This document shows positions 9,972-36,771 of a stretch of 38,748 nt of DNA, piece by piece. The stretch lies in the IMG/VR virus record IMGVR_UViG_2534682158_000014; one strand, written 5' to 3'. This stretch comes from a virus (taxonomy: Duplodnaviria; Heunggongvirae; Uroviricota; Caudoviricetes). Numbering within the stretch: position 1 is the stretch's first letter; each line of letters starts with the position of its first letter. Made by a program: the position numbers and the translations under genes. A model generated the notes under the pieces. That model saw only the letters and a list, made by a program, of their open reading frames with translations, searched no databases and was not told where the DNA came from.

Positions 9972-11303
9972 TTACTGAATGAATGACATTTGATTGATAT
10001 ATTTTATCAATAACTCTCTGGGTGTAGTACTACAAAAATTTAGGTGGTCATAATCAGTATAAACATTTGTGAATTTTTTAAGTTCTTCATCACTTTTAGG
10101 GGCAAATCGCGCATTAAGAGTAATGCTGTCTTTAATTATTCCGAAGAATACAATAGATATTTCAGGAATTTGCGTTCTTCTCTCATAAGAATAAGGTATT
10201 TCTTTTATGTTAAGCAGGTCTGCTAAATGAGATATAGATTCAGCGGTAATTTCTTGTTTTATTTTTTTCTTGTCACCAAAGCAATGTATGAAGACAGCTA
10301 CGACAAAGATCCTATTTATTAAAGGAGCACTGCTTTTGTACTCCTCGTCGTTTAACAGTTGAAAAATGTTAAGATTGCGTGAAAAAGTTTGTGTTTCACG
10401 TAAGGATAAGTTGGTTCGTTGAATTAAATCACGGATAAATCTACCAGATAAACTATTAATTTCATTTAGTGATTTTGTCTTGTCTACAAGGTAATTCCAA
10501 TATATAACAGATGTTTTACATACGACGTGACCTTTTATTAAACATGTGTCTGGAAGCGTGATGGTATATTTAATAAACTTGTCAAGATACTTTTGTGAGT
10601 TAATACTATAACCATAAATATGATTTATCGATGCTTTTAATTGTTCTGTGTTTGTAACTAAAATAAAAAAGACATTATTGATGTCAAAAATGTGTTTTAT
10701 TGTTTCAATGACATTTGTTGAAAAACTCGGCTTACATCGGTCTAATTCATCAATTATAATTACTATCTTTTGGTTTTCTGAAATACTTTCGATGCAAGAT
10801 TTAAGTGAATTTATGTTTTTCTCTGATTCCATATGGTCTTCAAGCAAATTTTCAATAGTCCCATCTATTGCTGCATTGCTTGCTTTCTTCATAGCATCTT
10901 GGAATTCTTCGGCAACTTCACTAGCCTCCTGTCGTAAAAACCAACCTGCACCAGCTTTTAGTACCGTTTTTAAACCAAATCGAATTGCAGGAAGGGATCT
11001 CTTAATGAAGTGTTGTTTTTCTTCCTCAGGCAAAATGCTAGCAATTGCAGAGGTTATGAGAAGTAATGGAGATTCTGCATGATCCCCTTTAAAGGCATCA
11101 ATATAAACAACTTTAGATTCGGTTTCTTGCTCAATAATGAGATTTTTCAGTTTGATACTAAATTCTGTTTTCCCTGTTCCCCATGCGCCGTCTATTACCA
11201 GTGGTGAAATGTCTGCCTCTGGTTTTAGCAACTTGATGATATTTTCAGCGATGTTTCTTCGTTGGAACTCGTCACGTTCAGTGAAAGATAGTGTATCTAA
11301 CAT
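9972..11303 (-). CDS. KAP-family P-loop NTPase, 443 aa, AT-rich accessory gene
   Basis: Walker A 'VIDGAWGTGKTEF' and Walker B 'IVIIIDELDRC'. Strongly AT-rich and oriented against the flanking late genes. Confidence 0.8.
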   Translation of the reverse strand: MLDTLSFTERDEFQRRNIAENIIKLLKPEADISPLVIDGAWGTGKTEFSIKLKNLIIEQETESKVVYIDAFKGDHAESPLLLITSAIASILPEEEKQHFIKRSLPAIRFGLKTVLKAGAGWFLRQEASEVAEEFQDAMKKASNAAIDGTIENLLEDHMESEKNINSLKSCIESISENQKIVIIIDELDRCKPSFSTNVIETIKHIFDINNVFFILVTNTEQLKASINHIYGYSINSQKYLDKFIKYTITLPDTCLIKGHVVCKTSVIYWNYLVDKTKSLNEINSLSGRFIRDLIQRTNLSLRETQTFSRNLNIFQLLNDEEYKSSAPLINRIFVVAVFIHCFGDKKKIKQEITAESISHLADLLNIKEIPYSYERRTQIPEISIVFFGIIKDSITLNARFAPKSDEELKKFTNVYTDYDHLNFCSTTPRELLIKYINQMSFIQ

Positions 11304-12961: not shown

Positions 12962-13522
12962 TTAAAGTACCCACCAGCGGATCGATTCCGTGGGTATGGT
13001 TGCAGCCTCGACTTGATGAACAATTCCCAACTCGGAGGCCCTTCCGGGATGAAGGATGGTTGCCGAAGTGATCAAATCCTTCCAATCAGCAATCTCACTT
13101 GGATTTTTCTTTTTTGTTTCAATATCCATGATTTGAATAAATCGATTTAGATCGTCATCGAGGCATGAAGCCCATTCTCTCAATCGTAGGTGATCTTCGC
13201 TGGGTGCGGCGAACCCCCAATGCAGTGGGTGAAGAAGGAAGCGAGAAAGTGGGTTGGCAGTTCGCACTTCTCCAGCCATATAGATCACGTTTGCGATTGA
13301 TTCAACATTACTGAGGTTATGCGTAGTAACCTTTACACCAAGTGACTTTAAAAAATTGTAAGCAGTAAAGCCTGAAACTGTATCTCCACCTTTGCTGGAA
13401 ATATAGAGCTTAATTTCTGTTGCTGGTTGATTAGTATTTGAAACTGCTTTTAAGCAGACATCCATCAGATTAGTTACAGAGGCAACTGTAACATCTGTCA
13501 AAAAATGTACCGTATGGATCAT
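12962..13522 (-). CDS. ClpP-fold (S14-like) serine peptidase homologue, 186 aa
   Basis: 'EIKLYISSKGGDTVSGFTAYNFLKSLGVKV...SNVESIANVIYMAGE...FLLHPLHWGF' aligns by eye to ClpP '[23 protein letters not shown]...GQAASMGAFLLTAG...MIHQPLGGY', with candidate Ser and His retained. Preceded by 'GAGGAG' on the minus strand. Confidence 0.55.
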   Translation of the reverse strand: MIHTVHFLTDVTVASVTNLMDVCLKAVSNTNQPATEIKLYISSKGGDTVSGFTAYNFLKSLGVKVTTHNLSNVESIANVIYMAGEVRTANPLSRFLLHPLHWGFAAPSEDHLRLREWASCLDDDLNRFIQIMDIETKKKNPSEIADWKDLITSATILHPGRASELGIVHQVEAATIPTESIRWWVL

Positions 13523-13600
13523 TTTTACTCCTCAATGGCAGGTCGCTAATGCAACAGGAAATGCAAATAATCGAATGTTATTAGAGCATCAAAGTAGAGC

Positions 13601-14149
13601 CTAGCTCTGTGGCGTGCTTAAGCATTTTGCTTCGTAATGTACCCTCATGGAAAACATAGCGAATAACATAATGAGCTTATCGCGTAAGCTTGTAGAGGAT
13701 CCCGTGAAACTTACAACCCTAGTTTCTGCTCCGTAAACCCCAAGCTTAAAATCTCTAATGGGGGTCAAGCTATCAGGGTAACCGTGCTCCATTAGACTTG
13801 TTAAGGAGTCAATCTCACTGTTAGTGATGTCAGAGTTGTTAATTTGATGTGAACGTTTGTTTCTGAAGTTGTTGAACCTTCGAATAAATTTGTTTAGCTC
13901 TGAGCTCATCCCATAGTTCATCGCAAGCTGAGCTTTAATGGCAAAATCCATGTTGATATTTTCGCCAAAACCGCTGAAGAAATCCCTGTTACCAGAGGCA
14001 CAGATAATCCAAGCTTCCAAGATTTGTTCAATCAAAAGGTGAGTGCGGAGATAGATACCAATGTCATCTTGGGACCGAACTATAGTCATTATTCTATCGG
14101 GTTGATGGGATGCTAAAGTCAACTCTTCAAAATGAGTAAAATCAAACAT
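13601..14149 (-). CDS. Hypothetical protein, 182 aa, with an R-x4-H motif (possible HEPN-like); first gene of the two-gene cassette
   Basis: 'FRNKRSHQ' fits R-x4-H. AT-rich. 'AAGGA' Shine-Dalgarno. No other recognisable domain. Confidence 0.5.
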   Translation of the reverse strand: MFDFTHFEELTLASHQPDRIMTIVRSQDDIGIYLRTHLLIEQILEAWIICASGNRDFFSGFGENINMDFAIKAQLAMNYGMSSELNKFIRRFNNFRNKRSHQINNSDITNSEIDSLTSLMEHGYPDSLTPIRDFKLGVYGAETRVVSFTGSSTSLRDKLIMLFAMFSMRVHYEAKCLSTPQS

Positions 14150-24753: not shown

Positions 24754-26595
24754 ATGGCTGAATTTGAGCTTAAGGCGTTGATCACCGGTGTCGACAGGCT
24801 TTCTCCCGCGCTGTCGAAAATGCAAAAGAAAATCCGGGGATTTAAACGCCAGGCGGAAGAAGCGTCACAGGGTGGGCTGGCGCTTGGTGGCGGACTGGCT
24901 GCGGGTCTGACGCTTTCCCTGAAATCTTATGCCGATCAGGAAAACGCCGCCACCGGGCTGAAAGTCGCCATGATGGATGCGAACGGCGAGGTTGGAAAGA
25001 GCTTTCAGGACATCAATAAACTGGCTATTGGTCTGGGTAACCAGCTACCCGGTACAACGGCTGATTTCCAGAACATGATGCAGATGCTGGTGCGTCAGGG
25101 GATCCCGGCAGAAAACATTCTGGGTGGTGTGGGTAAAGCGACAGCTTATCTTGCGGTACAACTGAAAAAAACACCGGAAGCGGCTGCTGAGTTTGCTGCA
25201 AAGATGCAGGATGCTACCGGAACGGCGTCAGAAGACATGATGGGGCTGTTCGACACTATCCAGAAGGCGTTTTATCTGGGCGTTGACGATACCAACATGT
25301 TGTCCTTCTTCACTAAAACCAGTTCTGTTCTGAAGATGGTGAACAAGGACGGTCTTCAGGCTGCACAGAGCCTTGCCCCCATCAGCGTCATGATGGATCA
25401 GATGGGGATGAACGGGGAGTCGGCAGGTAATGCCCTGCGAAAAGTTATCCAGTCCGGATTAAGCGTTAAGAAAATCAGGGACGTCAATAAAGTCATGGCC
25501 CGCCAGAAACTCGGGGTACAGCTCGATTTTACTGACGGCAAAGGAAGTTTTGGCGGTCTTGATAACATGTTCAGGCAACTGGCAAAGCTGCGAAAACTGA
25601 CCGACGTTAAGCGAACAGGTGTACTTAAGGCAATATTTGGTGATGATGCCGAAACCCTTCAGGTGGTCAATGCACTAATCGATAAAGGAAAGGATGGCTA
25701 CGATCAGATCCAGCAGAAGATGAATAAACAGGCCAGCCTGAATAAACGTGTTCAGGCCCAGCTTGGTACGCTGTCCAACCTGTGGGAGGCAATGACGGGG
25801 ACCGCAACTAACGGCCTTGCGGCTATTGGCGGCGCATTTTCTGGTGACGCCAAAAATATCACGCAATGGCTGGGGGAGTTAGGGGAAAAATTCACGAAGT
25901 TTGCGGATGAAAATCCCCGGGTTATTCGCGGCGTCGTCGGGCTTGCTGCCGGTCTTGCGATTCTGAAACTGGGATTGATGGGCGTTGGCGGGGCCATCAG
26001 TATTGTCAGCAGGATCATGTCGATGACGCCGATTGGAATGATTGCGACGGCGATAGCCCTGGCTGCGGGATTAATTATCACTAACTGGGATGTTGTCGGA
26101 CCTTATTTCAAGAAGCTCTGGGAAACCATTGGTCCTTATTTTGAGGCTGGCTGGGAACTTCTGAAGAAGGTTTTTGCCTGGTCGCCGCTGGGGATGGTAA
26201 TCAATAACTGGGGACCGGTTGTTAAGTGGTTTCAGGATATGTGGGACAAGCTGAAGCCAATTATTGAGTGGTTTACCGACAGTTCCGGTGACACGGTCGA
26301 TGCCATTAACTCTGCGCAGTGGGGCGCGGGTGCTTATGATGCTTATGGGACGGGATTCCCGGCGCGGGGATACACACCTTATCCGGCGATGGATCCGGCT
26401 CAGGCAAACAACGCCTCCGATGCCACAGGCCCGAATCCCTTCATGATTAACAAAGCTTCTGCGCCAAAAGTTGACGGTGAGATCAAGGTCTCTTTTGTGA
26501 ATTCGCCTCCGGGTATGCGGGTTATGGAAACGCGATCCAGCGGTATCGACGTGAATCACGACGTTGGCTACACCCGATTTGGTATGGGGGGCTGA
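24754..26595 (+). CDS. Tail tape-measure protein
   Basis: 613 aa, Ala/Gly-rich helical protein with hydrophobic segments, downstream of the chaperone pair. Confidence 0.85.
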   Translation: MAEFELKALITGVDRLSPALSKMQKKIRGFKRQAEEASQGGLALGGGLAAGLTLSLKSYADQENAATGLKVAMMDANGEVGKSFQDINKLAIGLGNQLPGTTADFQNMMQMLVRQGIPAENILGGVGKATAYLAVQLKKTPEAAAEFAAKMQDATGTASEDMMGLFDTIQKAFYLGVDDTNMLSFFTKTSSVLKMVNKDGLQAAQSLAPISVMMDQMGMNGESAGNALRKVIQSGLSVKKIRDVNKVMARQKLGVQLDFTDGKGSFGGLDNMFRQLAKLRKLTDVKRTGVLKAIFGDDAETLQVVNALIDKGKDGYDQIQQKMNKQASLNKRVQAQLGTLSNLWEAMTGTATNGLAAIGGAFSGDAKNITQWLGELGEKFTKFADENPRVIRGVVGLAAGLAILKLGLMGVGGAISIVSRIMSMTPIGMIATAIALAAGLIITNWDVVGPYFKKLWETIGPYFEAGWELLKKVFAWSPLGMVINNWGPVVKWFQDMWDKLKPIIEWFTDSSGDTVDAINSAQWGAGAYDAYGTGFPARGYTPYPAMDPAQANNASDATGPNPFMINKASAPKVDGEIKVSFVNSPPGMRVMETRSSGIDVNHDVGYTRFGMGG

Positions 26596-26676
26596 TACCC
26601 CGCTTAAACACGGGTTTTGTCGTTTAGCAGGTTCTTGGTAGGATTAGTCCGATACTTTAATGATGGGAATAGGGAT

Positions 26677-27354
26677 ATGAAAGTCTTAACAATTTATTCA
26701 GTTGTCGGCATGGCTCTTTTACTCGGGGGATGTACCTCTCCGAAGTACAATTATTTACCAAAAACAGAAAATTATAGTGAACCTCCTGTAGGAAGCATTA
26801 ATACAGCTTATGTCGGTGATTCAATGATTAAGCAGGGGGTGTCACAGAGGTTTGAAGGTCTGAAGGTTAATGCTCCTGCGAGAATTTCCTGGGCGTATAC
26901 GATCACTCCGGGGATGCTGAAAAAGGTTGGTGAGGATAACAAGGCTGATTATTACTTTCTCACAAACGGTGCTGATTCAGCCAATGTGGAAAAGGCAGTC
27001 CTTGCCGATATGTGGCAGGGCATCATGGTAGAAAAGAAAAAGAATGCCTTATGTGTAATAACAGTTTTCGGTGTTACCAACTGTGAAACTAACATGCCTA
27101 TCGAAAAGGTTACTCTGAATATCAGTGGTGATTCATCTTTCCAGCAAGCTCTGCTTTACAACGGAAGGGTCGGAAACAAAATCAACATTGGATATCGTGA
27201 ATTTTCATCGAATACAGCACGCCCGGCCTTCAACAACGATGTTGAGTATGATCTCGCGGAGTCTAAAACAATTGGCTATAAAGGGGCTAAATTCGAAGTA
27301 CTTGATGCGAGTAACCAAAGCATAAGGTATCGGGTAATAAGTAACTTTAGATAA
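26677..27354 (+). CDS. Lipoprotein, 225 aa, AT-rich insertion inside the tail module
   Basis: Signal peptide plus lipobox 'MKVLTIYSVVGMALLLGGCTSP'. Own Shine-Dalgarno and own terminator. Confidence 0.7.
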   Translation: MKVLTIYSVVGMALLLGGCTSPKYNYLPKTENYSEPPVGSINTAYVGDSMIKQGVSQRFEGLKVNAPARISWAYTITPGMLKKVGEDNKADYYFLTNGADSANVEKAVLADMWQGIMVEKKKNALCVITVFGVTNCETNMPIEKVTLNISGDSSFQQALLYNGRVGNKINIGYREFSSNTARPAFNNDVEYDLAESKTIGYKGAKFEVLDASNQSIRYRVISNFR

Positions 27355-27368
27355 GCGATAATTTAATG

Positions 27369-27394
27369 AAACCCGCTTCGGCGGGTTTTTTTAT
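27369..27394 (+). terminator. Intrinsic terminator after the lipoprotein gene
   Basis: 'acccgc-ttcg-gcgggt' followed by 'ttttttt'. Confidence 0.7.
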
Positions 27395-27407
27395 ATCCGG
27401 AGTTTAT

Positions 27408-28736
27408 ATGACGTGGAAAGACAGACTTCAGGACGCGTCATTTCGCGGCGTGCCGTTTAAGGTTGAAGAAGAAAGTGCGGGAACCGGTCGTCGTGTGGAA
27501 ACGCACGAATACCCGAACCGCGACAAACCCTATACCGAAGACCTGGGGAAAATCACTTTCCGCCCGTCCATCACGGCTTATGTGGTGGGAGATGACTGCT
27601 TTGACCAGCGCGATCGCCTGATTGACGCGCTGAATAAACCCGGTCCCGGCACGCTTGTCCATCCGACTTACGGTGAGCTGAAAGTCTGTGTTGACGGAGA
27701 GGTTCGGGTCAGCACATCGAAGAGTGAAGGGCGTATTGTCCGCTTTGACCTGAAGTTTGTCGAAGCAGGAGAACTCTCTTACCCCACATCAGGTGCGGCG
27801 ACGGCGCAGACGCTGATGTCATCCTGTTCTGCACTGGATGACTGCATCAGTGACAGCTTCAGCGGTTTCAGTATCGATGGTGTGGCGGATTTCGTGCAGA
27901 ACGACGTTATCGGTAATGCCAGCATAATGCTGGGGTATGTTTCTGATGCGATGAAAGTGGTGGATTCTGCCGTATCGGATGCCGCCAGGCTGTTGCAGGG
28001 GGATATCTCGGTACTTCTGCCGCCGCCATCGTCAGGCAAAAATTTCGTTGAGCAGGTGCAGAAAATGTGGCGTACCGGGAAACGCCTTTATGGTAACGCC
28101 AGCGACCTGGTCACCATGATCAAAACGCTTTCCGGTGTCAGCCTCGGCAGCGATCTGCAACCGCGCGGCGTCTGGAAAACGGACAGTAAAACCACCGCCA
28201 CGGCGACGCAGCAGCGTAACGTGGTTGCCAGCACTCTTCGTACGACCGCAATCAGCGAAGCGGCGTATGCCGTTACCCGATTGCCTGCGCCAACAACTTT
28301 CGCGGTGATGCAGAATTCCGCAGTGGGGCAGACAACAACACCCGCGCAGAGCAGTGGCTGGCCTTCCGTCACGCATTCGGCACTGAACAATGCACCGGCG
28401 GTGAAAAACACGGTTGACCTGCCGACGTGGGAAGAACTGACTGACATTCGCGACATACTGAATACGGCAATTGATAAGGAGTTGTCCCGTACAACCAGCG
28501 ATGCGCTGTTTCTGGCGCTGCGCCGGGTGAAAGCAGATCTGAATGCGGATATCAACACGCGCCTTGAACAGTCTGCACGGATCATTCAGCGCACACCGGA
28601 TGAGGTTTTACCCGCGCTGGTGCTGGCGGCGACCTGGTTTGATAACGCGGCGCGTGACGCGGACATTATCCGGCGTAATGCCATTACGCATCCCGGCTTT
28701 GTGCCGGTGATCCCTCTGAAGGTGCCAGTGCAATGA
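27408..28736 (+). CDS. DNA circulation protein (Mu N-like)
   Basis: 'MTWKDRLQDASFRGVPFKVEEESAGTGRRVETHEYPNRDKPYTEDLG' is typical of Mu gpN-family proteins. ATG at 27408 preceded by 'CCGGAG'. Confidence 0.8.
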   Translation: MTWKDRLQDASFRGVPFKVEEESAGTGRRVETHEYPNRDKPYTEDLGKITFRPSITAYVVGDDCFDQRDRLIDALNKPGPGTLVHPTYGELKVCVDGEVRVSTSKSEGRIVRFDLKFVEAGELSYPTSGAATAQTLMSSCSALDDCISDSFSGFSIDGVADFVQNDVIGNASIMLGYVSDAMKVVDSAVSDAARLLQGDISVLLPPPSSGKNFVEQVQKMWRTGKRLYGNASDLVTMIKTLSGVSLGSDLQPRGVWKTDSKTTATATQQRNVVASTLRTTAISEAAYAVTRLPAPTTFAVMQNSAVGQTTTPAQSSGWPSVTHSALNNAPAVKNTVDLPTWEELTDIRDILNTAIDKELSRTTSDALFLALRRVKADLNADINTRLEQSARIIQRTPDEVLPALVLAATWFDNAARDADIIRRNAITHPGFVPVIPLKVPVQ

Positions 28737-34002: not shown

Positions 34003-34030
34003 GCGGGTGCTTAGCACCCGCTTATTTAAT
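34003..34030. terminator. Hairpin terminator between the tfa (+) and gtrC-like (-) genes
   Basis: 'gcgggtgc-tta-gcacccgc' followed by 'ttatttaatt'. Confidence 0.55.
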
Positions 34031-35496
34031 TAATTGCAGTTGAATGTAATGTTTTTATCGTAAACAAAAATCTTCTTATCTCCGACGTCAATAACCTTTG
34101 ATGGATTACCAATCTCTTTAATTGTTATATTTCTCATAACCTCGTCATCTGTAATTATGAAATTTCCTCCGCGCTCATACCAATAGTTTTTTGACAACCA
34201 TTTATTGCATGCAAGTATATTCAAACCTCGGTTTACATCAATCGGAGCAATTGATATGTCTCCATCTATACTTGCTGATGAAGCAAACCAGAAAGATGCA
34301 TACCCGTTTGTGAGGTTATTCTGCCTTACAGTGTGTTTTATCTGATTTATAATATCATTAGAATTGTCTTTTTTTTCATGCATATAAATAGAACAAAAGA
34401 GAATAAATGTTGTAACAACCCCTAATGCGATGAATTTCCACCCTCTGGAGTTGTTAGATCTGCCAATAACAACAGGTGCTAGTATAAAAAATGGAACGAT
34501 ATATCTTATAGTCCATTCATCTATTGGACGGTTACTTGCAAGGTATGCTGGTATCATTATAATACAAGCTATACATATAGCCATATTGATCATGGAGGTT
34601 TTGAATATTTCCTTTACTGACATTGCAACTAATATAAGAAGTAAAATCATTACAACAAAACAAAAAACAGAAATAAGCGCTGTAATATCAGAAGGTGGCT
34701 TGCCAAAGAAGAAAGCTCCACTGTATAGGAGGAATCCTTTTACGAATAAGTATAAATTATTCAGGATATCATCAAATGCAACAAATGTTGGATCTGGAAC
34801 GCCTGGCAAAATGTACCAGTTATGAGCTCTTGCGTACATGGTCATAATTTTTGATGCAACATATGCAAATATAGTTGCAACTAGTATGATCAGATTTTTT
34901 TGGCTTTTGGTTTTTACTATAAAAATCACTGATGATATTGCTACTGGTGCAATAATGAGTAGCTTTATGATGTCATCACTGAAACAAGCTAGAGCTAACA
35001 CTAAAATATAAAGAGATAGAGAAATTAACGATCTTGTTTTGGAAAAATTGTCTAACATTATGAAGCAAAACAACATGGATACATATGTGCCGACATGTAT
35101 CACAGGTATTAATACGTTTAATACTGCAAACCCAGAAGGCAGCGCAACGCAAAATGAAATGGCCCATAACGATGAAAGCCTTTCTTTTGAAAGATAAAAT
35201 GTCATCAATGTAACCATTGAATACATAATTGCCGGTATGCAGTATGCTTGGTACTGTCCGTACCAGAATACCTTTGAAGCAAGCCCGTACCATATTATGT
35301 CTGTAAAATAGAATGATACTGTAGAGAGATACCATCCACTAAGCGTCCAATTTCCGTCCGCAATGTCCTTACCCTCAAGAAGTCCAGAAACAGCATCCGA
35401 ACTTGGCAAAATCTGTTTTGAAATCGAGGCGTAGAAGAAAGTCAAGAATATAAATCCAATGATGTATATGGCTGTTTTTTTTATATTTAAAGTCAT
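34030..35496 (-). CDS. GtrC-type serotype-specific O-antigen glucosyltransferase (polytopic membrane protein)
   Basis: 488 aa, multiple TM segments, AT-rich, last gene of a gtrA–gtrB–gtrC arrangement. Confidence 0.6.
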   Translation of the reverse strand: MTLNIKKTAIYIIGFIFLTFFYASISKQILPSSDAVSGLLEGKDIADGNWTLSGWYLSTVSFYFTDIIWYGLASKVFWYGQYQAYCIPAIMYSMVTLMTFYLSKERLSSLWAISFCVALPSGFAVLNVLIPVIHVGTYVSMLFCFIMLDNFSKTRSLISLSLYILVLALACFSDDIIKLLIIAPVAISSVIFIVKTKSQKNLIILVATIFAYVASKIMTMYARAHNWYILPGVPDPTFVAFDDILNNLYLFVKGFLLYSGAFFFGKPPSDITALISVFCFVVMILLLILVAMSVKEIFKTSMINMAICIACIIMIPAYLASNRPIDEWTIRYIVPFFILAPVVIGRSNNSRGWKFIALGVVTTFILFCSIYMHEKKDNSNDIINQIKHTVRQNNLTNGYASFWFASSASIDGDISIAPIDVNRGLNILACNKWLSKNYWYERGGNFIITDDEVMRNITIKEIGNPSKVIDVGDKKIFVYDKNITFNCN

Positions 35497-35497
35497 T

Positions 35498-36412
35498 TTA
35501 CTTATCCTTTAGAATGTATCTTGGTCGCTGCTTAACTTCAACATAAATTCTTCCTATATACTCTCCAAGAACTCCTATGCCTATTAACTGAACTCCACCA
35601 AGAAACAATATTGATACAATGATAGAAGGGTAACCTGGAACACTATTTCCAAACATCAATTTATCAGCAATCATCCATGCTCCATAAAGGAATGATAAGG
35701 TTGCCACAAACAGGCCTATATAAGTCCACATGCGCAAAGGGAAAGTAGAAAAGCTAGTGATCCCTTCCAGCGCCAAGTTCCATAGCTTCCATCCATTGAA
35801 CTTTGTGCTTCCTGCAACTCGTTCTGCTCGCGCATATTCTACGACATCGGTTCGACCACCAACCCAGCTCAGCACACCCTTCATAAACAGGTTTCGTTCT
35901 GGCATGAGCTTAATGTTTTCTACTACTTCGCGAGACATGAGCCGGAAGTCGCCAACATTTTCTTCTATCTTAGGGTTGCTGATTTTGTTATGAAGCTTAT
36001 AGAACCACTCAGCAGATTTACGCTTCAGCCTGCTGTCAGTGGAGCGGTCAGAGCGTTTAGCCAGAACCATATCTGCACCGGCCTGCCATTTCTCTATCAA
36101 GTGAGGAATAACTTCGATAGGGTCTTGCAGATCAACGTCAATCGGGATAATTGCCTCCCCGGTAGCATGGTCCAGACCTGCGAACAGGGCGGGTTCTTTG
36201 CCGAAGTTACGTGTGAACGACAGCGAAACAACAAGCGGGTCGGCAACAGCAAGCTCGTTGATAATTGATTCTGTAGCGTCTTTGCTGCCATCGTTTATGA
36301 AGACTATCTCGACTTCATGCTGCTGAAGCCCTTCAAATTCGCGCACAGTTTTATAAAAAATAGGTATCGTGGCCTCTTCGTTAAAGACCGGAACGACTAA
36401 AGAAATTTTCAT
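35498..36412 (-). CDS. gtrB: GtrB bactoprenol glucosyltransferase (GT2 family)
   Basis: '[13 protein letters not shown]...IFINDGSKD' GT2 N-terminus, 'IDVDLQD' DxD region and two C-terminal TM helices. Confidence 0.9.
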
Positions 36413-36771
36413 TTCGCATCCCTAAAGACAATGAACTTTGAATAGACGAAACCGCACACCAGGCTGATGGCGGAGAAGGTGACAAGAGTTATCATCGGGG
36501 GAAGTGCGCATCTATCAGCAGCCCATCCAACAGTAGCACTGAGTGTTCCCATGAACCCGACATATAACATGTAGCGCATCGTTGTAGTTGATGCTTTGAA
36601 TGTGAATTTTGCATTCGCGAAGAAGCTAAAACTCACAGCCACAACGAAACCTGCGAAGTTTGCCAGAGCCTGATTGGTATGCGCGGCATAGATACATACA
36701 CCAAAAACCACCCAGTGTATAAGTGTGTTCAGCACACCAATCGAGGTGTACCTTGCAAATATATTTAACAT
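36409..36771 (-). CDS. gtrA: GtrA flippase (small four-TM protein)
   Basis: 120 aa hydrophobic protein immediately upstream of, and overlapping, gtrB. Confidence 0.8.

What the first reader, a model, noticed from the sequence alone, without database searches (positions are those of the whole stretch)
26596..27394. Lipoprotein gene inserted between tape-measure and DNA-circulation genes
An AT-rich gene encoding a lipoprotein (lipobox LLGGC) with its own Shine-Dalgarno and terminator interrupts an otherwise tightly overlapping tail-gene array. Lipoprotein insertions in phages are often superinfection-exclusion factors that mask outer-membrane receptors or block DNA entry, as with Cor and Llp.
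Basis: partly seen in the sequence, partly recalled or inferred. Interest (0 to 1): 0.55.

Follow-up and report, generated by a model that had tools for sequence, protein, structure and literature searches.

The report
Mobile lipoprotein gene in prophage tail operon
A self-contained, horizontally acquired gene for an outer-membrane-type lipoprotein of unknown function sits in a swap-in/swap-out slot between two tail genes of an E. coli prophage; it is an accessory gene, possibly a shield against other phages, but it is unrelated to the known shields Cor and Llp.

Summary
ORF 26677-27354 (+) encodes a 225-aa protein with a signal peptide and a lipobox (LLGG-C19). It is AT-rich (41.6% GC; neighbours 52-56%) and lies between the tape-measure gene and the Mu N-like DNA-circulation gene of an SfV-like prophage. 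It is accessory, not structural. SfV, SfI, SfII and SfIV have an empty junction, and only 55 of about 1,100 E. coli genomes with this junction carry the gene. At least five unrelated single genes occupy the same slot elsewhere, so the junction is a cargo hotspot. One correction: the hairpin terminator is resident, because empty junctions have it too. The cassette instead carries a conserved extended -10 promoter motif (TGnTAGGAT) that travels with the gene between unrelated phages. The protein belongs to a large stand-alone family (phrog_1353; about 3,000 clusters at 50% identity, across several phyla) under strong purifying selection. It has no Pfam, NCBIfam or PADLOC match, a confident all-beta model with no PDB relative, and no similarity to Cor or Llp. 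Phage-borne copies lie beside the tape-measure gene in most lineages, the slot of the HK97 gp15 exclusion moron. Superinfection exclusion is plausible (about 0.4) but untested.

The parts
24754..26595 (+). Tape-measure protein gene (613 aa); left border of the cargo slot
   Evidence: PF10145 at E 1e-26; phrog_26612, phrog_17727 and phrog_28 (tail length tape measure)
26599..26618 (+). Weak hairpin (CCCG / CGGG, 8-nt loop) followed by TTTT, directly after the tape-measure stop codon
   Evidence: Read from the sequence. It fell below the threshold of the terminator scan. In other lineages the cassette also starts just after an upstream hairpin and T-run.
26617..26644 (+). Putative sigma-70 promoter of the cassette: -35-like TTGTCG (26617-26622), 16-nt spacer, extended -10 TGGTAGGAT (26636-26644)
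   Evidence: The TGnTAGGAT motif is nearly invariant in 9 of 10 upstream regions taken from different phage contexts, while the surrounding sequence diverges (alignment A5). The consensus scan missed it because it scores 8 of 12. Function is inferred, not shown.
26665..26668 (+). Shine-Dalgarno candidate GGGA, 8 nt upstream of the ATG
   Evidence: Sequence; this position is G-rich in the homologues
26677..27354 (+). Lipoprotein gene (225 aa precursor, stop codon included); member of phrog_1353
   Evidence: (E 2.7e-98, full length)
26677..26733 (+). Signal peptide and lipobox (MKVLTIYSVVGMALLLGG-C19). The Cys19 codon is 26731-26733. The +2 residue is Thr, not Asp.
   Evidence: Cys19 is invariant and the lipobox is conserved in 45 homologues; LPAM_1 matches. 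Outer-membrane sorting is inferred from the +2 rule.
27368..27392 (+). Intrinsic terminator (9-bp stem, loop TTCG, seven T). It is a resident feature of the junction and is shared with empty junctions.
   Evidence: It aligns with the annotated SfII terminator with compensatory changes (CCCGC/GCGGG against CCCAC/GTGGG).
27408..28736 (+). DNA-circulation / baseplate-hub gene (Mu N-like); right border of the slot. The likely true start is 27408, preceded by GGAG at 27398-27401.
   Evidence: PF07157 at E 7e-34; phrog_184. The start ATGACGTGGAAAGAC and its GGAG are conserved in SfII and SKA5. RefSeq gives a 1329-nt gene.

Best explanation
SHOWN. This is a moron, a self-contained mobile single-gene cassette. 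It has a short leader with a conserved extended -10 promoter motif, a ribosome-binding site and a lipoprotein ORF. It occupies a cargo slot between the tape-measure gene and the Mu N-like baseplate-hub gene of an SfV-like temperate phage. That phage combines a lambdoid antiterminator, an HK97-type head and a Mu-type contractile tail.

The slot is empty in most relatives and holds at least five other unrelated single genes in others. The product has a Sec/Lgt/LspA-type lipoprotein signal. It belongs to a very large, conserved, stand-alone family with no known function and no solved structural relative.

INFERRED.
1. After lipidation the protein is sorted to the inner leaflet of the outer membrane, because residue +2 is Thr rather than Asp. 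Its roughly 205-aa all-beta body, with a likely C126-C136 disulfide, faces the periplasm.
2. In the lysogen it is transcribed from its own promoter, and transcription stops at the resident terminator. During lytic growth the antiterminated late transcript reads through it, so it is also made late.
3. Most likely function (about 0.4): it protects the lysogen, and late in infection the progeny, by blocking a step of phage entry in the cell envelope. The target would be a conserved step such as passage of the tail tip, tape-measure protein and DNA through the periplasm, not one specific receptor. That is HK97 gp15-like, Ltp-like or T4 Sp-like logic, not Cor/Llp-like receptor masking.

Confidence that it is an accessory moron encoding an exported lipoprotein is about 0.9. 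Confidence in the exclusion function is about 0.4; the figure below refers to that function.
For: Accessory and mobile:
- The junction is empty in SfI, SfII, SfV and SfIV.
- 1,097 of 5,426 complete E. coli genomes have the junction flanks, and 55 carry the gene, as two alleles.
- Alternative cargo in the same slot: a 170-aa and a 162-aa signal-peptide protein, a bPH_1 protein, a membrane-anchored tRNA_anti-like OB-fold protein on the opposite strand, and a 176-aa membrane-anchored protein. Four of these five types were counted, in 85, 101, 28 and 72 genomes.
- GC is 41.6% against 52-56% in the neighbours.
- The leader with TGnTAGGAT moves with the ORF into unrelated phages.
- Most lineages have a hairpin and T-run after the stop codon.

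Real and constrained: dN/dS is 0.06-0.13. The family has 3,053 representatives of 50%-identity clusters at E<=1e-3. 22 columns are invariant in A3, including C19; in A4, 40 are, also including C126, C136 and the YRE..ARPAF..VEYD motif.

Lipoprotein.

Context pointing to phage-phage conflict:
- In 9 of 12 analysable 80%-identity clusters that contain viral contigs, the gene lies within 2 ORFs of a tape-measure gene.
- These tape-measure proteins belong to at least six different best-matching PHROGs.
- An 88%-identical copy with the same promoter sits upstream of a different tape-measure gene in another phage (L025/L096).
- That slot, between the tail chaperone genes and the tape-measure gene, is where the HK97 gp15 exclusion moron lies (PMC3594210).
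- The distant homologue STM2726 of Fels-2 lies between gpA and the portal gene. This is the P2 old/tin anti-phage hotspot (PMC9122126).
- The host prophage has an antitermination protein upstream of the late genes. This fits read-through of the terminator during lytic growth.
Against: - There is no functional evidence of any kind.
- There is no similarity to any known exclusion protein or defence model.
- In species-representative genomes, 66 of 78 analysable copies have no tape-measure gene nearby and no recurrent Pfam family among their immediate neighbours. Many lie between housekeeping genes. The family's basic job may therefore have nothing to do with phages.
- Adjacency to the tape-measure gene may simply reflect permissive insertion sites next to terminators in tail operons. 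The lineages are also not fully independent.
- The promoter is a conserved motif, not a mapped start site, and scores only 8 of 12 against consensus.
- The prophage already carries a gtrABC-type O-antigen modification module that serves exclusion.
Confidence: 0.4

Rival explanations
1. It is a lysogenic-conversion or host-fitness factor that is not aimed at phages. The envelope lipoprotein would alter outer-membrane or periplasmic physiology, for example resistance to serum, stress or toxins, or adhesion, as lambda Bor does. The prophage carries it because it benefits the host.
For: - Most copies in species-representative genomes are solitary chromosomal genes with unrelated neighbours.
- The range is very wide and includes environmental Beta-, Alpha- and Deltaproteobacteria, Planctomycetota and Omnitrophota.
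- Conservation is high, about 45-50% identity across classes. This suggests a conserved cellular partner rather than a fast-evolving phage target.
- Several other cargo genes in the same slot are also envelope-targeted proteins with no known defence role.
Against: - Phage-borne copies lie non-randomly beside the tape-measure gene.
- A distant homologue lies in the P2 anti-phage hotspot.
- No Pfam family matched the protein at E<=0.1 or any of 43 family members at E<=1, other than the lipid-attachment-site model LPAM_1 and single-member weak hits. From memory, Pfam has Bor and TraT models, so a match would have appeared.
- The distribution is patchy, in 102 of 185,579 species representatives, which is typical of mobile conflict genes.
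Confidence: 0.3
2. It works in the lytic cycle. It would be made by read-through of the late tail operon and act late in infection, for example to stop progeny virions from being inactivated on envelope debris (the second role described for T5 Llp) or to modulate the envelope before lysis.
For: - It has the same orientation as the late operon and lies inside it.
- The only strong terminator lies downstream of it. The phage encodes an antiterminator, so late transcripts should include it.
- In other phages it also sits co-oriented inside tail modules.
Against: - The conserved promoter motif of its own argues for expression independent of the late operon.
- Close relatives such as SfV, SfI, SfII and SfIV are viable phages without it.
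- The many non-phage chromosomal copies cannot have a lytic-cycle role.
Confidence: 0.15
3. It is a structural or assembly component of the tail, for example a tape-measure chaperone or a baseplate accessory protein.
For: Only its position, between the tape-measure and baseplate-hub genes and beside the tape-measure gene in many phages.
Against: - It is absent from the same junction in the closest phages and from about 95% of E. coli prophages of this type.
- The slot holds unrelated genes, one of them on the opposite strand.
- The signal peptide and lipobox export the protein from the cytoplasm, where tails assemble.
- Its base composition is foreign.
- Most family members lie outside phages.
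Confidence: 0.03

Closest known systems
HK97 gp15 moron (superinfection exclusion; Cumby et al. 2012; review PMC3594210)
   Same: Both are single-gene morons with foreign GC inside a tail operon beside the tape-measure gene. Homologues of this lipoprotein occupy the same slot as gp15, between the tail chaperone genes and the tape-measure gene, in several phage lineages with other tape-measure families. Both are envelope proteins, and both have homologues outside prophages.
   Different: gp15 is a small inner-membrane protein of the YebO family. This is a 225-aa lipoprotein predicted to go to the outer membrane, with no sequence relation. No Pfam family matched, so from memory it is not a YebO-family protein either. 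In the window it lies downstream of the tape-measure gene of a contractile-tailed phage. Its function is untested.
Cor (phi80, N15, HK022) and Llp (T5) exclusion lipoproteins
   Same: All are phage-encoded lipoproteins with a classical lipobox, carried as accessory genes.
   Different: Cor and Llp are 77-aa precursors that inactivate FhuA. BLASTP finds no similarity (E 35 and E 7), and the PHROG differs. This family is three times larger, predicted all-beta, and occurs in phyla where a FhuA-specific role is implausible.
Ltp of Streptococcus thermophilus phage TP-J34 and T4 Sp (spackle)
   Same: By function only, and from memory. These are exported or lipid-anchored prophage or phage proteins that block genome delivery after adsorption. 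They act on the incoming tail tip (the tape-measure protein for Ltp, the gp5 lysozyme for Sp). This is the mechanism favoured here.
phrog_1353 (PHROGs v4, 'unknown function'), including Fels-2 STM2726 and Acinetobacter Vieuvirus and Moraxella Mcat28 'hypothetical proteins'
   Same: True family membership: a full-length match at E 2.7e-98. tblastn identity is 46-48% to the Acinetobacter and Moraxella phage copies and 27% to copies in P2-like phages.
   Different: Nothing differs; this is simply the family's first closer description. No member has a described function in the libraries or papers searched.
P2 gpA-gpQ and P4 defence hotspots (Rousset et al. 2022, PMC9122126)
   Same: A fixed junction in a conserved phage backbone holds interchangeable accessory genes. 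A distant family member sits in the P2-type hotspot of Fels-2.
   Different: This slot lies inside the tail operon of SfV-like phages and holds only small single genes, mostly envelope proteins. None matches a PADLOC model. I found no description of this hotspot.

Membership tests
Bacterial lipoprotein (Lgt/LspA/Lnt substrate) | N-terminal signal peptide with a positively charged n-region and a hydrophobic h-region, followed by a lipobox [LVI]-x-[GAS]-C | tested here: met
   The N-terminus is MK-VLTIYSVVGMALL-LGG-C19. The Cys is invariant and the L-x-[GA]-C pattern holds in 45 homologues. Seven members match LPAM_1.
Bacterial lipoprotein (Lgt/LspA/Lnt substrate) | Acylation of the Cys, globomycin-sensitive processing, and outer-membrane localisation | not testable with these tools
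   Outer-membrane sorting is inferred only from the absence of Asp at +2 (Thr here; Thr, Ala, Val or Ile in homologues).
Moron (Juhala et al. 2000; PMC3594210) | Extra DNA that is absent at the same position in closely related phages | tested here: met
   The junction is empty in SfI, SfII, SfV and SfIV and in most E. coli prophages of this type.
Moron (Juhala et al. 2000; PMC3594210) | Base composition different from the neighbouring genes | tested here: met
   41.6% GC against 52.3% and 56.2%; GC3 is 41% against 58-62%.
Moron (Juhala et al. 2000; PMC3594210) | Own promoter and own terminator | tested here: inconclusive
   A conserved extended -10 motif TGnTAGGAT with a -35-like TTGTCG travels with the gene, but it fell below the scan threshold and no start site is mapped. 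A terminator is present but belongs to the junction, not to the insert.
Moron (Juhala et al. 2000; PMC3594210) | Expressed from the repressed prophage | not testable with these tools
   This needs RNA-seq or a promoter fusion in a lysogen.
Cor exclusion lipoprotein | Sequence homology to Cor (about 77 aa) | tested here: not met
   BLASTP against HK022 Cor gives E 35. No PHROG other than phrog_1353 and phrog_6167, both of unknown function, matched.
Llp (T5) exclusion lipoprotein | Sequence homology to Llp (77-aa precursor) | tested here: not met
   BLASTP against T5 T5.158 gives a best E of 7.
Cor / Llp | Inactivation of the FhuA receptor | not testable with these tools
   This needs an experiment. 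The family's occurrence far outside Enterobacterales makes a FhuA-specific role unlikely.
Bor / TraT outer-membrane lipoproteins | Match to the Pfam models for these families (that such models exist is from memory) | tested here: not met
   No Pfam family matched the protein at E<=0.1. Among 43 family members at E<=1, only LPAM_1 (7 members) and nine single-member weak hits (E 0.04-0.3) appeared.
Known anti-phage defence systems (PADLOC-DB v2) | Match to any defence-protein model | tested here: not met
   0 families at E<=1.
phrog_1353 | Full-length profile match | tested here: met
   E 2.7e-98, residues 1-225 against profile positions 1-227 of 230.
Phage tail structural protein | Conserved presence and position in related tail modules | tested here: not met
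   It is absent from the closest phages, the slot holds unrelated genes, and the signal peptide exports the protein.

The most novel reading that the evidence does not exclude
The family is a new, very widespread class of single-gene entry blockers. An outer-membrane-anchored periplasmic lipoprotein with a previously unseen all-beta fold would stop tape-measure-mediated genome delivery of both contractile and non-contractile tailed phages. It would do so by acting on a conserved envelope step. Its recurrent linkage to tape-measure genes would then be selected, for example because the blocker and a tape-measure protein that resists it are inherited together, and would not be an accident of permissive insertion sites. 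A corollary is that the tape-measure / baseplate-hub junction of SfV-like prophages is an undescribed hotspot for envelope-acting exclusion genes.
Probability: 0.2. Interest if true: 0.7.

Novelty: new variant of a known kind. Interest (0 to 1): 0.45.

Why it matters
About a fifth of complete E. coli genomes carry an SfV-like prophage with this junction, and roughly a third of those junctions hold one of at least six small genes of unknown function, most of them envelope proteins. The lipoprotein family has about 3,000 clusters at 50% identity, spans several phyla, is under strong purifying selection, and has no solved structural relative and no annotation. If it blocks phage entry, it would add a common single-gene determinant of phage host range. 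That matters for phage therapy and phage typing of E. coli, Klebsiella, Acinetobacter and Moraxella. It would also give a handle on the poorly understood periplasmic stage of genome delivery. If it does not, it is still a well-defined case of a portable promoter-plus-gene cassette hopping between tail operons.

Tried and rejected
- Family libraries. Pfam, NCBIfam and PADLOC gave nothing usable: 0, one sub-threshold pilin hit (14 bits against a cut-off of 138), and 0. Scanning 43 family members one by one against Pfam gave only LPAM_1.
- Solved structures by sequence. The single sequence gave no PDB hit at E<=10, and the profile gave one at E 0.18, so nothing significant.
- Guilt by association outside phages. 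Pfam on 119 immediate neighbours of non-phage copies showed no recurrent family.
- Domain fusions. The long relatives are mis-called starts. P0157 is a capsid::lipoprotein chimera from a deletion or misassembly, not a real fusion.
- The consensus promoter scan found nothing upstream. The promoter candidate came only from comparing upstream regions.
- The TTG start at 26617 (245 aa) was rejected. Its extension is not conserved and overlaps the promoter.
- The 27366 start for the DNA-circulation gene was rejected. It lies inside the terminator.
- Literature searches for STM2726, phrog_1353, WP_040072272, or a hotspot between the tape-measure and DNA-circulation genes found no characterisation.
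Full report
**1. The observation**

The window contains an ORF on the + strand between a tape-measure gene and a DNA-circulation gene. The tape-measure gene is at 24754-26595 (PF10145). The DNA-circulation / baseplate-hub gene is Mu N-like (PF07157, phrog_184).

The biologically sensible start is ATG 26677, with the stop at 27352-27354, giving 225 aa. RefSeq annotates the same 678-nt gene in a 99.9% identical E. coli prophage as 'hypothetical protein' WP_000866660.1.

The N-terminus, MKVLTIYSVVGMALLLGG-C19-TS, is a textbook lipoprotein signal. Cys19 is invariant and the lipobox L-x-[GA]-C is kept in all 45 aligned homologues.

The gene is 41.6% GC (GC3 41%). Its neighbours are 52.3% and 56.2% GC (GC3 58-62%). 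The other tail genes overlap or abut, so this is the only long gap in the array.

The gene is under strong purifying selection. dN/dS is 0.13 against the second E. coli allele and 0.06 against an 88%-identical copy elsewhere.

**2. Corrections to the anatomy**

The hairpin and T-run at 27368-27392 is a good intrinsic terminator, with a 9-bp stem, -16.4 kcal/mol and z -3.05. It is not the gene's own, however.
- The homologous hairpin lies in the empty junction of SfII, with compensatory stem changes, and is annotated there as a terminator.
- The T-run and right arm align in SKA5, which carries a different cargo gene.

The DNA-circulation gene therefore starts at 27408, preceded by GGAG at 27398-27401. 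The ORF-finder's 27366 lies inside the terminator.

The cassette's own control element lies upstream. Upstream regions were compared between copies in unrelated phage contexts. About 60 nt travel with the ORF, and one motif is nearly invariant while the surrounding sequence diverges: an extended -10 element, TGnTAGGAT.
- In the window this is 26636-26644.
- It is preceded by a -35-like TTGTCG at 26617-26622, with a 16-nt spacer.

The consensus scan missed it because it scores 8 of 12. This is a candidate promoter, not a mapped one.

In most other lineages the gene is followed by a hairpin and T-run.

**3. It is cargo in a hotspot, not a tail part**

The window is an SfV/SfI/SfII-like temperate phage. 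It has a lambdoid antiterminator, an HK97-type head, a Mu-type contractile tail and a gtr module next to ybhB-bioA.

In SfI, SfII and SfV the two flanks join directly. About 60 nt separate them, and these hold only the terminator. SfIV, which has a different tape-measure allele, also has no gene there.

Among 5,426 complete E. coli genomes, 1,097 match the flanks, but only 55 carry the lipoprotein gene. It occurs as two alleles (at least 99% identity, and about 94%). It was at this junction wherever I looked.

Other unrelated genes occupy the same slot:

| Cargo | Genomes |
|---|---|
| 170-aa signal-peptide protein (phage SKA5) | 85 |
| 162-aa signal-peptide protein (phage 720R4) | 101 |
| 125-aa bPH_1 protein | 28 |
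| 148-aa membrane-anchored tRNA_anti-like OB-fold protein, opposite strand | 72 |
| 176-aa membrane-anchored protein | not counted |

None matches a PADLOC model. These counts are of the cargo sequences. I checked their position only in samples.

I found no paper describing this junction as a hotspot.

**4. The protein family**

Pfam, NCBIfam and PADLOC give nothing. PHROGs gives a full-length match to phrog_1353, 'unknown function', at E 2.7e-98.

The family is large. There are more than 1,000 hits in the 90%-clustered database. Among representatives of 50%-identity clusters, 3,053 match at E<=1e-3 and 1,885 at E<=1e-10. Nearly all are stand-alone proteins of 215-235 aa. The few long ones are mis-called starts or a deletion chimera.

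Identity stays near 45-50% from E. coli to Acinetobacter, Vibrio, Burkholderia and Geobacter. Relatives also occur in Planctomycetota, Omnitrophota, Verrucomicrobiota, Gemmatimonadota and Bacteroidota. Only 102 of 185,579 species representatives carry one, a patchy distribution typical of a mobile gene.

Invariant positions include the lipid Cys, two further Cys (C126 and C136, probably a periplasmic disulfide) and a C-terminal motif, YRE..ARPAF..VEYD.

AlphaFold2 with a 43-sequence alignment gives a confident all-beta model, with pLDDT 90.3, pTM 0.71 and 18 strands.
- Foldseek against PDB and BFVD finds nothing at E<=1e-3.
- Sequence and profile searches of PDB find nothing significant (best E 0.18).

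The fold has no solved relative that I could detect. AFDB could not be searched.

**5. Context elsewhere**

198 IMG/VR contigs encode a relative. I used a crude ORF caller and seeded tape-measure detection with nine tape-measure proteins that were verified by PHROG. Phage-borne copies lie within two ORFs of the tape-measure gene in 9 of 12 analysable 80%-identity clusters that contain viral contigs.
- In SfV-like phages the gene is downstream of the tape-measure gene.
- In several other lineages it is upstream. Their tape-measure proteins match different best PHROGs (phrog_1107, 24, 1506, 2013), and the window's own matches phrog_26612.
- Acinetobacter Vieuvirus phages are one such lineage. 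There the gene follows a DUF4258/HTH pair.

The closest non-E. coli copy is 88% identical and has the same leader. It sits upstream of a different tape-measure gene in a Pseudocitrobacter prophage (L025/L096).

For a random gene in a phage of about 60 genes, I would expect this proximity in roughly 7% of cases. That is my rough estimate. The lineages are not fully independent, and tail-operon terminators may simply be permissive sites.

The upstream slot is the one occupied by the first moron ever named, HK97 gene 15. Its product blocks genome entry (PMC3594210).

Distant homologues (27% identity) in Fels-2, RE2010 and Klebsiella P2-like phages were found. In Fels-2, the one context examined, the gene lies between gpA and the portal gene. 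This is the old/tin anti-phage hotspot (PMC9122126).

Against a purely phage-directed role, 66 of 78 analysable species-representative loci have no tape-measure gene nearby. Their 119 immediate neighbours share no recurrent Pfam family, and many are housekeeping genes. The gene acts alone.

**6. Mechanism**

Shown:
- It is a mobile cassette of promoter motif plus lipoprotein ORF, sitting in a cargo slot.
- The product is exported and has a lipobox.
- The family is constrained and stand-alone.

Inferred from established rules:
- Lgt/LspA/Lnt processing and Lol sorting to the outer membrane, because residue +2 is Thr rather than Asp.
- A periplasmic, disulfide-bonded beta body.
- Expression in the lysogen from its own promoter, ending at the resident terminator.
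- Read-through by the antiterminated late transcript during lytic growth.

My favoured function, at about 0.4, is a block to phage entry in the envelope. The target would be a conserved step of tail-tip, tape-measure or DNA passage through the periplasm. This resembles HK97 gp15, TP-J34 Ltp or T4 Sp in logic, not the masking of one receptor.

Rivals:

| Rival | Confidence |
|---|---|
| Bor-like host-fitness factor unrelated to phages | 0.3 |
| Late-cycle helper | 0.15 |
| Tail component, contradicted by its absence from sister phages and by its export signal | 0.03 |

**7. Comparison with known systems**

It works like a classical moron, and it may work like an exclusion lipoprotein. It is not a member of the Cor or Llp families: BLASTP gives E 35 and E 7, and the proteins are 225 aa against 77 aa. 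It does not belong to any Pfam-defined lipoprotein family or to any PADLOC system. It is a member of phrog_1353.

**8. Verdict**

It is a new variant of a known kind: a moron-encoded envelope protein from an uncharacterised, very widespread family with an unmatched predicted fold.

The added value lies in three points:
- the cargo hotspot;
- the portable promoter;
- the recurrent linkage to the tape-measure gene.

Interest is moderate, because nothing here contradicts expectations for temperate phages and the function is untested.

Noticed in passing
window 26596-27407, compared with L001, L002, L006, L009, L010, L011: The tape-measure / DNA-circulation junction of SfV-like prophages is a cargo hotspot. 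It is empty in most, and otherwise holds one of at least six unrelated small genes, four of them with a signal peptide or membrane anchor. One (a tRNA_anti-like OB-fold protein) is on the opposite strand. None matches PADLOC. Four of the alternative cargo types occur in 28-101 of 5,426 E. coli genomes each; the fifth was not counted.
   Followed up: partly
window 9972-11303 (- strand): A 443-aa KAP-family P-loop NTPase (PF07693, E 3e-70) lies in a very AT-rich island (GC 0.30-0.37). It sits between the DUF968 gene and the lysis genes, in the classical moron slot downstream of the antiterminator. It may be a defence gene. The 99.9%-related prophage in strain 300033 has different genes there.
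   Followed up: partly
window 12962-14149 (- strand): Two minus-strand ORFs lie in an AT-rich stretch (GC about 0.41) between the lysis genes and the HNH/terminase genes. One is a 186-aa ClpP-like protease (PF00574, E 2e-12). The other is a 182-aa ORF with no Pfam match. This is another accessory island.
   Followed up: partly
window 34030-36771 (- strand): A gtrA-like gene (120 aa), a gtrB-like GT2 gene (304 aa) and a 488-aa gene with no Pfam match (GC 0.33-0.40) lie at the prophage end next to ybhB/bioA. This is an O-antigen modification module, itself an exclusion device. The assignment rests on the annotation of a related prophage (L176).
   Followed up: partly
window 26640-26649 and homologous leaders (L026/L027: GGATTAATCC): The conserved -10 region overlaps a short inverted repeat, GGATTAGTCC (a perfect GGATTAATCC in some lineages). 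It could be an operator or a 5'-UTR hairpin. It was not analysed further.
   Followed up: no
L004 4130-4896 (Acinetobacter phage Ab1656-2) and L058-L095: In Acinetobacter Vieuvirus phages the lipoprotein homologue follows a DUF4258 / helix-turn-helix pair that looks like a toxin-antitoxin module, and precedes an 87-aa ORF and the tape-measure gene. The slot upstream of the tape-measure gene therefore holds a small accessory island.
   Followed up: no
P0157; H140 (E. coli 2013C-4282): One database protein fuses an HK97-type major capsid N-terminal part to the C-terminal 150 residues of this lipoprotein, and one E. coli genome has only the 3' 42% of the gene. These look like deletion remnants of decaying prophages.
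   Followed up: partly
window 27368-27392 compared with L001 2103-2141: The terminator inside the tail operon is conserved between filled and empty junctions through compensatory stem changes (CCCGC/GCGGG against CCCAC/GTGGG). The hairpin itself therefore appears to be under selection in a Q-antiterminated late operon.
   Followed up: partly
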